Positions 28,748 to 45,926 of a DNA stretch of 64,000 bases are shown in pieces. Each line of letters begins with the position of its first letter. Positions within the stretch are counted from its first letter, which is position 1. The position numbers and the translations under genes were made by a program. The notes under the pieces were generated by a model. It was not told the DNA's origin, searched no databases, and saw only the letters and a program-made list of their open reading frames with translations. The stretch is from a virus (Duplodnaviria; Caudoviricetes), in the IMG/VR virus record IMGVR_UViG_3300025392_000002; one strand, written 5' to 3'.

Positions 28748-29503
28748 ATGTCAGCACAAATTAAATTAAGACGAGATACAGCCGCTAATTGGACAAGTGT
28801 AAATCCAATATTAGCTACAGGCGAACCTGGTTTAGAAACTGACACGCTTAAATTAAAATACGGAGACGGTGTAAATCGTTGGAACGCTCTCAGCTATCCT
28901 ACTGTACTACTTCCTACAACAATACCAAATGCTACAACAGCTACAAACGTAGCTAGCGGAACTAGTAATCAATTATTAGTACAAATTGCGCCGGGAACCA
29001 CTGGATTTATAACAGCGCCAACTATTCCAGGTTTCTTACAATGGACTGGTAGTAGCTTTACGTGGTCTAGTACTAGTACAGTTGCCGCGGCGCAAACTCT
29101 AACTGGATCTATTTTAGCACCCAATGTTACAACAGCCGCGGGATTAATTACAATAGGAACTACTAGTGTATTAACTACAATGCCTGGTAATTTAGCTGTT
29201 ACCGGCACTACTGGGTTAACTGGAAATGTTACTATCACTGGAACCAGCACACTTAACAATTCTTTAACAGTATCCACTGGTGGTATCGGAGTAACTGCTG
29301 GCGGATTAACTGTAACTGCTGGCGGTGCAACTATAACTGCTGGTGGAATTACTGTAACTGCTGGTGGAATTACCGTTACTGGAACTTCATCGATTACAGG
29401 AAATACTACAATCACTGGTACAGCAAACGTGGTAGGATCTTTAAAGATTAAAGGTGTTGATTTTAAAGGTTTTGCCATAGCACTAGCAACGGCTATGGCC
29501 TAA
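28748..29503 (+). CDS. Fibre protein with Mtd-N-like domain and TAGGxTV repeats
   Basis: IKLRRDTAANWTSVNPILATGEPGLETDT; 21-bp tandem repeats near 29275-29380. Confidence 0.75.
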   Translation: MSAQIKLRRDTAANWTSVNPILATGEPGLETDTLKLKYGDGVNRWNALSYPTVLLPTTIPNATTATNVASGTSNQLLVQIAPGTTGFITAPTIPGFLQWTGSSFTWSSTSTVAAAQTLTGSILAPNVTTAAGLITIGTTSVLTTMPGNLAVTGTTGLTGNVTITGTSTLNNSLTVSTGGIGVTAGGLTVTAGGATITAGGITVTAGGITVTGTSSITGNTTITGTANVVGSLKIKGVDFKGFAIALATAMA

Positions 29504-40582: not shown

Positions 40583-40649
40583 TAGGTTCGCTCCTTATTT
40601 GCTGTTGATGTTAGTATTATAGCAAGATTGGGCAGAGTTGTCAACACCT

Positions 40650-40723: not shown

Positions 40724-40770
40724 ATCATAATTATACTGGATTGGGCGGGGATTGTCAAGTCGCCGAAACC

Positions 40771-45038: not shown

Positions 45039-45257
45039 TCAACCTTCAAGCCAACAATCCCTGGCCAGCTCTGTGGTTATTGTTTCGCCGCCGATGTAGT
45101 CCCCATGGAACCCGCTTGGGCTAATACTTTCCAGGACTAGGGCCTTGCCTGTGTAGCTCTGCTTGATCTCTACAATCTTGCCCGATTGCTCAATGTCGCA
45201 TTTGAAATTGACAACATCTCCTACAGTGACCTCTTGTCCGTCTACCAGTGCTTTCAT
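45039..45257 (-). CDS. Hypothetical protein
   Basis: VGDVVNFKCDIEQSG. Confidence 0.65.
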   Translation of the reverse strand: MKALVDGQEVTVGDVVNFKCDIEQSGKIVEIKQSYTGKALVLESISPSGFHGDYIGGETITTELARDCWLEG

Positions 45258-45424
45258 TCTGCCTCCGCTGGTTCAAACATACGAGCACCCATGTCCATAA
45301 AGACGTCAAATGTCTTAAGGAAGTCCTCATCGTACTTGTGACGGTTAACTTTGATGGCAAACAGGCCTACTAGAAGGTCTCCATTGCCTACTTCTTTCGC
45401 TACTTTTACCAGATGATCAAACAT
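45254..45424 (-). CDS. 56-aa hypothetical protein
   Basis: Own promoter and AGGAGCGA SD. Confidence 0.65.
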   Translation of the reverse strand: MFDHLVKVAKEVGNGDLLVGLFAIKVNRHKYDEDFLKTFDVFMDMGARMFEPAEAE

Positions 45425-45489
45425 AAGTTTCGCTCCTTATTGTTACTGTTAAAAATATATTATACAACCAAAATCAGTTACTGTCAACC

Positions 45490-45815
45490 AGGGATGCTAC
45501 AAGGTAGCTTATCATCGTTTGACCCCAGCGACAGTAATTAGATTGGGCGGGCAGAGCGTGCTCCTCGTTTAATGTTCAGCCCACTGGCCAACACCCTGTA
45601 ACCGTACAGTTAGGGAAGAACTAAAGGGGCTCCGGACTAGGCGCTAGTACCGTCTACTAGATCGTCTGCCTTCGCTATTACTGCCTACTTACTATCGCCG
45701 CTTCTCCGAGCCTAAGCCCTGTTTCATGCCCCAGTTCAAGCGTATCCGTCGATACTGTCCTCTACCTGGGCGCCTAGCGATGTAGGTAACCTTTAATGCT
45801 TTCCTAACTGTCTAT
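45490..45815 (-). ncRNA. Unassigned structured RNA of about 325 nt
   Basis: Consensus promoter 45822-50, no SD-led ORF, at least six nested helices. Confidence 0.7.
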
Positions 45816-45854
45816 GTGCTTATTATAGCACATAGACCCTAACCTGTCAATAAC

Positions 45855-45926
45855 CTATTGTTTTGGACGGTCTTTACAAACTTCAAATCCCTTCCAGTGC
45901 CACTTTCTGCAATAGGTACATTCCAT
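45855..45926 (-). CDS. 23-aa Cys/His peptide
   Basis: MECTYCRKWHWKGFEVCKDRPKQ with own promoter and AAGGAG. Confidence 0.55.
   Translation of the reverse strand: MECTYCRKWHWKGFEVCKDRPKQ

What the first reader, a model, noticed from the sequence alone, without database searches (positions are those of the whole stretch)
45490..45850. ORF-free ~325-nt highly structured RNA with its own consensus promoter
Seen: TTGACA-17-TATAAT (45850-45822) drives a unit with no SD-led ORF. Nested helices: 45799-811 with 45606-18 (12/13 bp), 45790-95 with 45622-27, 45770-77 with 45637-44, 45766-70 with 45730-34, hairpins 45742-55 and 45644-60, and a possible pseudoknot 45763-67 with 45784-88. A purine-rich, weakly paired segment spans 45661-45728. 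A second domain (45490-45600) has further stems (GCTAC-CTT-GTAGC; GTGGGC/GCCCGC; TTGGCC/GGTCAA). It has no tmRNA, RNase P or group I intron hallmarks that I can recognise. Inference: a large phage ncRNA expressed early, such as a ribozyme, protein decoy or scaffold.
Basis: partly seen in the sequence, partly recalled or inferred. Interest (0 to 1): 0.78.

Follow-up and report, generated by a model that had tools for sequence, protein, structure and literature searches.

The report
New folded RNA of lake phages
This stretch is a real gene for a roughly 205-base, tightly folded non-coding RNA that uncultured giant freshwater phages make from a strong early promoter, often as the first gene of their tRNA operons; it matches no catalogued RNA family and its job is still unknown.

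Summary
The promoter and the lack of an ORF are confirmed. The first 205-210 nt behind the promoter (45815-45607, minus strand) are a genuine structured RNA.

It has over 160 homologues in IMG/VR and freshwater metagenome contigs, 122 of them unique. On 60 sequences, 62 consensus pairs are 88.8% paired, against 39-47% in slid controls, and 52 pairs show compensatory changes.

The fold is a three-way junction. A 21-bp 5'/3' helix (P1) closes it, and the junction core is nearly invariant (GGUUACCUA, UAGG, AUGAA, GUAAUGA, GUUCC). One hairpin carries an invariant AGACGKU loop.

Its "second domain" (45490-45600) is two separate small modules, not part of this RNA.

No Rfam 15 family matches three divergent members. 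None of 66 loose pattern hits in cellular genomes passed the family HMM. Blastn and CM searches of cultured phages, including the nearest relatives (PA5oct, Phosso, Atu_ph07), found nothing.

The RNA is single copy in five near-complete 320-356 kb genomes. It is almost always promoter-proximal. In 35 of 115 members it is followed by tRNA-Asp, which often abuts P1.

Best reading: a trans-acting stable RNA of a new family, matured like tRNA/rRNA precursors. Its function is unproven.

This scan has already reported the same family on other phage DNA (four earlier follow-up reports).

The parts
45845..45850 (-). -35 hexamer TTGACA of the RNA's own promoter
   Evidence: The same promoter position is conserved in 38 or more family members.
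45822..45827 (-). -10 hexamer TATAAT (with TG extension). Predicted start is near 45815, 4-5 nt before helix P1.
   Evidence: The start site is inferred from spacing and is not measured.
45810..45837 (-). 28-nt palindrome GTCTATGTGC-TATAATAA-GCACATAGAC centred on the -10 box
   Evidence: Relatives carry GTTCATGTGC...GCACATGAAC, a change on both arms. Its function is unknown: an operator, or a hairpin in read-through RNA from the upstream cassette.
45607..45815 (-). Core structured RNA (new family), about 205-210 nt
   Evidence: The covariance model matches 45602-45818 at 167.7 bits, E = 2e-43. Covariation is shown.
45790..45810 (-). P1, 5' strand (CAGUUAGGAAAGCAUUAAAGG)
   Evidence: Helix 1: 23 pairs, 19 with compensatory change. 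Another clade has CUAUAUUAAAAUG/…UUUUAAUAUAG in its place.
45607..45627 (-). P1, 3' strand (CCUUUAGUUCUUCCCUAACUG)
45776..45786 (-). P2/P2a 5' strand (CCUAC-A-UCGCU), preceded by the invariant junction UUA (45787-45789)
   Evidence: Helices 2 and 3 (96-100% paired).
45684..45699 (-). P2a/P2 3' strand (GGCGA...GUAGG)
45728..45773 (-). P3 arm (GC.CCCAG / CUGGG.GC), including hairpin P3a at 45742-45755 (GUAUC-GACG-GAUAC)
   Evidence: Helices 4-6, with many compensatory changes
45721..45727 (-). Invariant single strand AUGAAAC between P3 and P4
   Evidence: Consensus cAuGAA, conserved in 97% or more of 122 sequences
45708..45719 (-). P4 hairpin (GGGC-UUAG-GCUC here). Most relatives have a GNRA loop, and some have 20-30 nt insertions.
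   Evidence: helix 7
45677..45683 (-). Junction strand CAGUAAU (family consensus aGUAAUGA, nearly invariant)
45628..45676 (-). P5 arm ('type A' variant). The base helix is AGC/GCC here, where the consensus is GAC/GUU, a compensatory A-U to G-C change. The hairpin is at 45644-45660 and its invariant 7-nt loop AGACGGU is at 45649-45655.
   Evidence: Helices 8-10.
45536..45599 (-). Module 2: an optional small conserved element (GGGUG...hairpin UUGGCC-AGUG-GGCUGA...GCCCGCCCAAUCUAAUU). It is not part of the core.
   Evidence: Seven unique relatives have it, and the hairpin covaries. In L033, L068 and L246 it lies between the core and tRNA-Asp.
45489..45528 (-). Module 3: a conserved hairpin (CUGGGGUCAAACGAUGAUAAGCUACCUUGUAGCAUCCCUGG) in front of the next promoter. 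It is not part of the core.
   Evidence: The same element occurs in unrelated contexts in L091 and L017.
45459..45487 (-). Next consensus promoter. It drives the 56-aa ORF at 45254-45424.

Best explanation
The stretch holds the gene for a stand-alone, trans-acting, metabolically stable structured RNA. It belongs to a previously uncatalogued family confined to uncultured large (about 100-356 kb) freshwater myoviruses.

Shown:
- The RNA is about 205 nt and folds into a three-way junction closed by a 21-bp helix between its 5' and 3' ends.
- One arm (P2) carries a second junction with arms P3/P3a and P4. The other arm (P5) ends in an invariant 7-nt loop, AGACGKU.
- Sequence invariance is concentrated in the junction cores, while the peripheral helices vary freely and covary.
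- The gene is single copy per genome and sits directly behind a sigma-70-type promoter.
- In tRNA-rich relatives it is the first gene of a stable-RNA operon: promoter, boxB/boxA-like leader, this RNA, then tRNA-Asp, tRNA-Glu and tRNA-Tyr.

Inferred:
- Host RNA polymerase makes it immediately after infection.
- It is cut out of longer transcripts by the host's stable-RNA processing enzymes. That would be RNase P where tRNA-Asp abuts P1, and probably RNase III or RNase E on or next to the long P1 duplex elsewhere, as in this window, which has no terminator behind it.
- It then acts in trans through its invariant junction core as a binding platform for a host or phage factor.
- The most likely target is in the translation or tRNA apparatus, because it travels with the phage's tRNA/tmRNA island. 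The target itself is unknown.
For: Homologues and structure:
- nhmmer found 20 or more homologous loci at 72-91% identity. The pattern scan gave 78 IMG/VR loci, and 82 of 120 metagenome loci were confirmed.
- Covariance model searches gave 163 matches, 122 of them unique, with a median identity of 60% to the window.
- On 60 sequences, 62 pairs are 88.8% paired against 39-47% when slid. 52 pairs have compensatory changes. The covariation score is 0.471 against about 0.10 in controls, and 0 of 500 shuffles reach it.
- The junction nucleotides are invariant.

Genome context:
- There is one copy in the window and one in each of five 92-100% complete genomes.
- A promoter matching 10 or more of 12 consensus positions lies within 160 nt upstream in 105 of 116 members, and 60 of these are perfect. 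Random windows of the same loci give 17% and 10%.
- A same-strand tRNA lies within 300 nt downstream in 45 of 115 members. In 35 it is tRNA-Asp, and in 18 of those it starts -6 to +4 nt from the model end. Only 2 of 117 have a tRNA upstream.
- What follows the RNA otherwise varies: module 2, promoters, unrelated ORFs. That argues against a cis-regulator of one particular gene.
- 23 tRNA-array members have a covarying hairpin plus GUUCUUUAAAAA 34-42 nt upstream. This resembles rrn boxB-boxA, whose boxA is UGCUCUUUAACAA from my own knowledge.
- No terminator lies behind the core in the window.
Against: - No transcript data could be obtained. Expression, the RNA ends and its stability are therefore inferred.
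- No partner is known. Neighbouring proteins are uninformative. Ro60, RtcB and reverse transcriptase are absent from five complete genomes.
- The constant promoter-proximal position would also fit an element that acts in cis on the transcribing polymerase or on the precursor.
- The link with tRNA-Asp may be inherited gene order rather than function. It is absent in this window and in 70 of 115 members.
- The single-sequence fold is only modestly better than shuffles (z = -2.37).
Confidence: 0.55

Rival explanations
1. Cis-acting leader. The folded RNA acts on the polymerase that makes it, or on its own precursor. It could give processive antitermination in the manner of HK022 put, EAR or the rrn leader, or act as a processing or insulating module for the stable-RNA or early operon it heads.
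For: - It is promoter-proximal in 91% of members, at three discrete distances.
- tRNAs lie downstream but almost never upstream.
- There is no terminator behind it in the window.
Against: - Where a leader exists, a separate boxB/boxA-like signal is already present upstream of the RNA, so that job seems to be taken.
- In the window and in L064, L004 and L002 the next gene has its own consensus promoter right behind the RNA.
- 205 nt with two invariant junctions is far more than known put or boxA elements need.
- The downstream genes are not constant.
Confidence: 0.17
2. tRNA-Asp-directed RNA. The invariant P5 loop A-GAC-GKU presents the Asp codon GAC to the GUC anticodon of phage or host tRNA-Asp, as a T-box specifier does. 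The RNA would capture, sense or shield that tRNA.
For: - 35 of the 45 members with a downstream tRNA are followed by tRNA-Asp, and the pairing persists across very divergent tRNA-Asp sequences.
- It also persists in phages that keep only 2-4 tRNAs.
- The loop is invariant and contains GAC.
- Several adjacent tRNA-Asp genes have U37, which extends the complementarity to AGAC/GUCU.
Against: - A 3-4 nt complementarity is weak evidence.
- The loop does not change where the neighbour is tRNA-Ser or tRNA-Glu.
- There is no covariation between loop position 1 and tRNA position 37.
- No UGGN element conserved in both P5 types could pair with the NCCA end.
- There is no Rfam T-box match.
- This window has no tRNA-Asp.
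- The linkage can be explained by inherited gene order.
Confidence: 0.1
3. RNA-only assembly or ribosome-associated particle, like a small counterpart of ROOL and GOLLD. Those are phage RNAs encoded near tRNA islands that form homo-oligomeric cages.
For: - It has the same ecological and genomic niche: phage-encoded, at tRNA islands, and with no protein partner encoded nearby (PMC12286853 read).
- It has rigid closed ends and conserved junctions.
Against: - It is three to four times smaller.
- There is no Rfam match to ROOL or GOLLD even at E = 10 or less.
- No conserved self-complementary loop was found. ACGU in the P5 loop occurs only in part of the family.
Confidence: 0.1
4. Catalytic RNA or metabolite-binding aptamer. 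The invariant junction nucleotides would form an active site or a ligand pocket.
For: The conservation pattern is typical of ribozymes and riboswitch aptamers: an invariant junction core with variable, covarying peripheral helices that tolerate indels.
Against: - It matches no known ribozyme or riboswitch class.
- There is no conserved expression platform or constant downstream gene.
- The junction strands do not fit the hammerhead core (own comparison).
- No cleavage-site signature could be tested.
Confidence: 0.08

Closest known systems
GOLLD and ROOL RNAs (Rfam RF01998, RF03087)
   Same: Both are phage or prophage-encoded, ornate, covariation-supported non-coding RNAs. They are often at tRNA islands, are abundant stable RNAs, have unknown function and have no dedicated protein partner (PMC12286853).
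   Different: They are about 580-800+ nt, against about 205 nt here. There is no sequence or structure match at E = 10 or less on three divergent members. No evidence of oligomerisation was found here. This family was found only in uncultured freshwater phage contigs: searches of cellular genomes and of cultured phages gave no confirmed member.
Phage T4 rnaC and rnaD (species 1 and 2 stable RNAs in the T4 tRNA cluster)
   Same: They are small stable RNAs of unknown function, co-transcribed with phage tRNAs and released by tRNA-processing enzymes.
   Different: There is no homology: nhmmer --max with the family profile against the T4 region gave only a chance hit at E = 12. T4 rnaC carries a tRNA-like T arm, whereas this RNA has none. 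The T4 RNAs lie at the downstream (3') end of the T4 tRNA cluster, after tRNA-Arg, whereas this RNA heads its operon.
Bacterial rRNA operon organisation (boxB-boxA leader; long 5'/3' stems cut by RNase III)
   Same: In 23 members the unit reads promoter, hairpin, GUUCUUUAAAAA (close to rrn boxA UGCUCUUUAACAA), then a structured RNA closed by a duplex of more than 20 bp, then tRNAs. This mirrors the rrn layout P-boxBA-16S-tRNA.
   Different: The RNA is not rRNA-like in sequence (no Rfam match). The window copy has no such leader, because its start site is 5 nt before P1. Nus-factor binding and RNase III cleavage are untested.
phi29 pRNA (Rfam RF00044)
   Same: It is a phage RNA made from a strong early promoter and built on a three-way junction closed by a 5'/3' helix.
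   Different: There is no Rfam match. pRNA belongs to small podoviruses that package protein-primed DNA, whereas this phage is a myovirus with a T4-type terminase.

Membership tests
Any Rfam 15 family (4227 models, including tmRNA, RNase P, group I/II introns, 6S, SRP, Y RNA, T-box, GOLLD, ROOL, OLE, raiA, HEARO, pRNA and riboswitches) | A score at or above the family's gathering threshold, or at least a consistent sub-threshold match | tested here: not met
   The whole window at gathering threshold gave only tRNA-Met. Searches at E = 10 or less on the window copy and on two divergent members gave only unrelated chance hits of 10-17 bits.
tmRNA | A tRNA-like domain (acceptor stem, T arm, CCA end) together with a tag reading frame | tested here: not met
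   ARAGORN finds no tmRNA in the window. It does find a separate, bona fide permuted tmRNA in relative L105, which also carries this RNA. No T-arm motif appears in the consensus.
RNase P RNA | Conserved regions CR-I and CR-V forming helix P4 | tested here: not met
   There is no Rfam RNase P match at E = 10 or less. AGUCCGG occurs only in P5 type A, at the wrong position, and is absent from type B.
Group I intron | It interrupts a gene, has a P3-P8/P7 core with a G-binding site, and has P1 formed with the 5' exon | tested here: not met
   A promoter lies directly upstream and no gene is split. There is no Intron_gpI match. The ends pair with each other.
T4 rnaC/rnaD | Sequence homology to the T4 species 1 and 2 RNAs | tested here: not met
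   nhmmer --max against T4 68-76 kb gave only one chance hit at E = 12, outside rnaC/rnaD.
Bacterial Y RNA (Ro60/Rsr partner) | A Ro60 (TROVE) gene in the same genome or operon, and a tRNA-like module | tested here: not met
   TROVE and RtcB are absent from five 92-100% complete carrier genomes, and the positive controls responded. There is no T-arm-like module. A host-encoded Ro60 cannot be excluded.
Retron or DGR template RNA | An associated reverse transcriptase | tested here: not met
   RVT_1 is absent from five complete carrier genomes.
T-box leader | A specifier codon in Stem I, a T-box sequence with a UGGN bulge, and a downstream aaRS or amino-acid gene with a terminator/antiterminator | tested here: not met
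   There is no Rfam T-box match. No conserved UGGN is shared by both P5 types, and there is no terminator/antiterminator or aaRS gene downstream. Only the GAC in the P5 loop is reminiscent.
The new family itself (as defined here by model R1) | P1-P5 architecture with an invariant GGUUACCUA / UAGG / AUGAA / GUAAUGA / GUUCC core | tested here: met
   The window copy scores 167.7 bits, E = 2e-43, over the full model length, and carries every invariant block except one compensated change at the P5 base.
Protein-coding gene (either strand) | A conserved open frame with a codon-like substitution pattern | tested here: not met
   The window has no start-to-stop frame longer than 19 codons inside the core. 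The longest frames in relatives differ in strand and phase. Substitutions are compensatory in helices.

The most novel reading that the evidence does not exclude
The RNA is a new functional class of translation-hijacking phage RNA. It would be a stable RNA expressed like a miniature rRNA, as the first gene of an rrn-style boxB/boxA stable-RNA operon. It would work directly on the translation apparatus. It could dock on tRNA-Asp through the invariant GAC of its 7-nt P5 loop, or bind the ribosome, or self-assemble as ROOL and GOLLD do.
Probability: 0.12. Interest if true: 0.85.

Novelty: categorically new. Interest (0 to 1): 0.62.

Why it matters
Large phages carry islands of tRNAs, tmRNA and enigmatic stable RNAs. 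T4 rnaC and rnaD have been known since the 1970s, and GOLLD and ROOL since 2010-2017. Their purpose is a long-standing open question.

This family adds a compact (about 205 nt), very well-supported member of that niche. It has hundreds of natural variants, an invariant junction core, a single copy per genome and a defined promoter.

Its size makes it suitable for in vitro work such as chemical probing, cryo-EM or crystallography, pull-downs and RNase P or RNase III processing assays. If its target lies in the translation or tRNA machinery, it would reveal a new way for phages to take over the host.

The main limits are that every carrier is uncultured and that no expression data could be checked here.

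Tried and rejected
- **Rfam.** Searches at gathering threshold and at E = 10 or less on three members found nothing relevant.
- **Cultured phages.** Blastn with three family members found no match. The covariance model run on the nearest cultured relatives (PA5oct, Phosso, Atu_ph07) gave only a 13.5-bit hit antisense inside a prohead gene, which is chance.
- **Cellular genomes.** The strict pattern gave 0 hits. The loose pattern gave 66 hits, about the number expected by chance, and none passed the family HMM.
- **T4 rnaC/rnaD.** Homology was rejected.
- **Partner proteins.** Ro60, RtcB and reverse transcriptase are absent from five complete carrier genomes.
- **Neighbouring proteins.** Pfam and PHROGs annotate none of them usefully.
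Both were rejected.
- **Coding potential.** Rejected.
- **Literature.** Full-text searches for the invariant motifs and for phage tRNA-array RNAs found only primer coincidences and the GOLLD/ROOL work.
- **Hammerhead.** The junction strand lengths and order do not fit the hammerhead core.
- **RNase P.** AGUCCGG occurs in only one P5 type and at the wrong place.
- **6S RNA.** This RNA is branched, not a rod with a central bubble.
- **Possible bulged-G motif.** CAU-GAA in J3/4 could pair with AGUA-AUG in J2/5 to form a sarcin-ricin-like motif. It is attractive because both strands are invariant. It is sterically doubtful, because it would have to span the 11-bp P2, and it cannot be tested by covariation.
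- **16S rRNA complementarity.** GGUUACCU is complementary over 8 nt to 16S AGGUAACC. I judged this to be chance, and the bases are paired within the RNA.

Full report
**What is in the window.** The minus strand between about 40.6 and 47.8 kb is an early-gene region of an uncultured large myovirus. The phage encodes a tail sheath, a T4-type terminase, a UvsX/RecA-like protein, a DnaB helicase and a primase. Its terminase is 51-53% identical to those of the jumbo phages PA5oct and Phosso. This region carries 12 perfect TTGACA-17-TATAAT promoters, against 0.13 expected by chance for the whole window.

One of these promoters, at 45850-45822, is followed by about 330 nt without any ORF of 25 aa or more on that strand. 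The next consensus promoter is at 45487-45459, and it drives a 56-aa ORF.

**Is it structured beyond chance?** On the single sequence the evidence is weak. The whole 326 nt fold no better than dinucleotide shuffles (z = -0.12). The first 211 nt alone give z = -2.37.

The decisive evidence is comparative. Fetching loci around two flanking proteins and running nhmmer showed that the first 205-210 nt behind the promoter are conserved at 72-91% identity in more than 20 IMG/VR contigs. The flanks are not conserved.

A pattern taken from an invariant block found 78 IMG/VR loci. A covariance model (R1) then gave 163 matches in the fetched loci. Of these, 122 are unique full-length sequences with a median identity of 60% to the window copy and a minimum of 45%.

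**The structure.** I tested the RNAalifold consensus with explicit controls on 60 distinct sequences.
- 62 pairs are 88.8% paired, against 39-47% when the 3' partners are slid by 1-3 columns.
- 52 pairs show changes on both sides.
- The covariation score is 0.471, against 0.09-0.11 for slid structures and 0.19 for shuffles.
- 0 of 500 shuffles reach the observed value on any measure.

The architecture, in window coordinates, is as follows.
- P1 pairs 45810-45790 with 45627-45607. It is a duplex of about 21 bp joining the two ends.
- The junction strand UUA follows P1.
- P2/P2a pairs 45786-45776 with 45699-45684.
- P2/P2a leads to an inner junction. It carries P3 (45773-45766 with 45734-45728) with its hairpin P3a (45755-45742), the invariant strand AUGAAAC, the hairpin P4 (45719-45708) and the strand GGAGAAGC.
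- The junction strand CAGUAAU connects P2 to P5.
- P5 (45676-45628) has a hairpin at 45660-45644 with the invariant loop AGACGGU.
- P5 runs without any linker into the 3' strand of P1.

Over 122 sequences the positions conserved at 97% or more are GGUUACCUA, UAGG, AUGAA, GUAAUGA and GUUCC. These are the two junction cores. The peripheral helices vary, covary and tolerate insertions. P4 takes up to about 30 extra nt. P5 exists in two architectures, and the window has 'type A'.

The window copy shows a neat internal check. At the base of P5 the consensus GAC/GUU is AGC/GCC, an A-U to G-C double change that it shares with L015.

The proposed helix 45770-77/45637-44 and the pseudoknot 45763-67/45784-88 are perfect in this one sequence. 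Across the family they pair in only 50% of cells, which is no better than the controls.

The 'second domain' is not part of the RNA. Positions 45599-45536 form a small optional module. It occurs in seven unique relatives, has a covarying hairpin, and in L033, L068 and L246 sits between the core and a tRNA-Asp gene. Positions 45528-45489 form another small hairpin element that also occurs in unrelated contexts in L091 and L017.

**What it is not.**
- No Rfam 15 family matches, either at gathering threshold or at E = 10 or less, on the window copy and two divergent members. This excludes tmRNA, RNase P, group I/II introns, 6S, SRP, Y RNA, T-box, pRNA, GOLLD, ROOL, OLE, raiA, HEARO and the riboswitch classes as currently modelled.
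- ARAGORN finds only a tRNA-Met in the window. In relative L105 it finds a genuine permuted tmRNA next to this RNA, so the two are different genes.
- There is no homology to T4 rnaC or rnaD.
- There is no conserved ORF on either strand.
- Neither the literature search nor motif strings retrieved a description of it.

**Distribution.** The family was found only in uncultured freshwater phage contigs. The strict pattern gives no hit in one genome per 185,579 prokaryotic species. The loose pattern gives 66 hits, about the chance expectation, and none passes the HMM. No cultured phage matches by blastn. The model does not match PA5oct, Phosso or Atu_ph07. Five carrier genomes of 320-356 kb, 92-100% complete, each have exactly one copy and 26-33 tRNAs.

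**Context.** Three regularities stand out.

1. *The RNA is promoter-proximal.* 105 of 116 members have a sigma-70-type promoter matching 10 or more of 12 positions within 160 nt upstream, and 60 of these are perfect. Random same-strand windows of the same loci give 17% and 10%.

   The promoter sits at three discrete distances, which correspond to three upstream contexts.
   - Directly in front of the RNA, as in the window, with the predicted start 4-5 nt before P1.
   - Behind an 87-nt conserved, covarying 'U module'.
   - Behind a 70-nt leader.

2. *The 70-nt leader resembles an rRNA operon leader.* It occurs in 23 members that lie inside large tRNA arrays. It consists of a covarying hairpin followed by GUUCUUUAAAAA, and L122 and L112 have UGCUCUUUAAAAA and UGUUCUUUAACAA. 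To my knowledge this closely resembles the boxB-boxA antitermination leader of bacterial rRNA operons, whose boxA is UGCUCUUUAACAA.

3. *tRNAs lie downstream, almost never upstream.* 45 of 115 members have a same-strand tRNA within 300 nt downstream, against 2 of 117 upstream. In 35 of the 45 the tRNA is tRNA-Asp(GUC), and in 18 of those it starts within -6 to +4 nt of the model end. The pairing holds across very different tRNA-Asp sequences, and also in phages that keep only two to four tRNAs.

The window copy has lost the tRNA or never had one. Other things can follow the RNA as well, including module 2, a new promoter or unrelated small ORFs. It is therefore not the regulator of one constant downstream gene.

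**How it most likely works.**

*Shown:*
- It is a conserved, single-copy, promoter-proximal, strongly structured RNA gene.
- Selection is concentrated on two junction cores and one hairpin loop.

*Inferred:*
- Host sigma-70 polymerase transcribes it at once after infection.
- No terminator follows it, and tRNA-Asp often abuts P1. Its ends are therefore probably made by the host's stable-RNA processing enzymes: RNase P at the tRNA border, and RNase III or E at or near the long P1 duplex, as for rRNA precursors.
- The closed ends should make it long-lived.
- It then acts in trans through its junction core as a binding platform.

It is organised like a miniature rRNA operon and travels with tRNAs and tmRNA. 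I therefore think its target lies in the translation or tRNA machinery, but this is inference only.

I put about 0.95 on 'a real structured RNA of a new family', and about 0.55 on the stand-alone, processed, trans-acting reading as a whole.

**Rivals.**
- A cis-acting leader that acts on the polymerase or on the precursor: 0.17.
- A tRNA-Asp-directed RNA that uses the GAC in the P5 loop: 0.10.
- A small ROOL/GOLLD-like self-assembling or ribosome-binding RNA: 0.10.
- A ribozyme or aptamer: 0.08.

Candidate partners Ro60, RtcB and reverse transcriptase are not encoded by five complete carriers, and the neighbouring proteins are uninformative.

**Relation to earlier work of this scan.** The look-up showed that the same family had already been followed up on other phage DNA (e1-5667909, e1-5407049, e1-5407062, e1-5375691) with the same core verdict. 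I reached that verdict independently before the look-up. This report adds:
- the control-tested consensus structure;
- the two P5 types;
- the promoter-proximity and tRNA-asymmetry statistics;
- the boxB/boxA-like leader;
- the negative tests for cellular genomes, cultured relatives and candidate partner proteins;

**Verdict.** This is a genuine structured RNA of an uncatalogued family with unknown function. It is worth experimental work because it is compact and richly sampled. It is limited by the lack of a cultured host and of expression data.

Noticed in passing
L064:3785-3875, also L004, L154, L168, L101, L003, L009, L109, L052, L022, L086 (alignment A4 columns 385-475): An 87-nt conserved 'U module' (AAGGCGAUCCUC...GAGUUUGGAGACUCGGCCU) lies between a consensus promoter and the core RNA in 12 or more relatives. 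It folds into a small branched structure with 4-5 compensatory pairs and has no Rfam match. It is absent from this window.
   Followed up: partly
L132:5100-5180, L116:8330-8405, L122, L112, L095, L106, L164 and others (23 family members): The leader in front of the RNA inside tRNA arrays is a covarying hairpin followed by GUUCUUUAAAAA, or UGCUCUUUAAAAA, or UGUUCUUUAACAA. It looks like the boxB-boxA antitermination signal of bacterial rRNA operons. This would be a phage stable-RNA operon that borrows Nus-factor antitermination.
   Followed up: partly
window 45810-45837 (-): A 28-nt perfect palindrome is centred on the -10 box of the RNA's promoter. Relatives change both arms together (GTCTATG.../...CATAGAC versus GTTCATG.../...CATGAAC). 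It could be an operator for a dimeric regulator, or a hairpin in read-through RNA from the upstream cassette.
   Followed up: partly
window 45855-45926 (-): A 23-codon ORF (MECTYCRKWHWKGFEVCKDRPKQ) with a good AAGGAG ribosome-binding site has its own consensus promoter at 45982-45954. It is a cysteine-rich micro-protein cassette directly upstream of the RNA promoter, and L015 and L005 conserve its 3' end.
   Followed up: no
window 45536-45599 (-) and L033, L068, L246, L279, L001, L015: Module 2 can form two mutually exclusive foldings: the hairpin UUGGCC/GGCUGA, or GGGCUGA/UCAGCCC followed by GCCCAAUCUAAUU. The motif GCCCAATCT recurs in the window (6 exact copies), including inside the spacers of two consensus promoters at 40616-40644 and 40730-40758.
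   Followed up: partly
L033:4179-4253, L013:7371-7445, L166:9010-9084, L154:7609-7684, L105:1499-1573: The tRNA-Asp genes that follow the RNA encode their CCA end. Several have an unusual anticodon loop, UUGUCUA (U37, A38), instead of the usual YUGUCAC. They may not be ordinary decoding tRNAs.
   Followed up: partly
L157:75-535 (-) and L279:2546-3546 (-): Two contigs carry two diverged copies of the RNA. The copies are adjacent in L157 and lie about 580 nt apart on the same strand in L279. Every other genome examined has a single copy.
   Followed up: no
L105:3059-3624 (-): A permuted (two-piece type) tmRNA gene with tag ANDEQFALAA lies in the tRNA island of a 320-kb carrier phage, 1.3 kb from the structured RNA.
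   Followed up: no
window 28748-29503 (+): A 251-aa protein has an N-terminal Mtd_N domain (major tropism determinant). It sits in front of a 1390-aa ORF with no Pfam match. No reverse transcriptase was seen in five related complete genomes.
   Followed up: no
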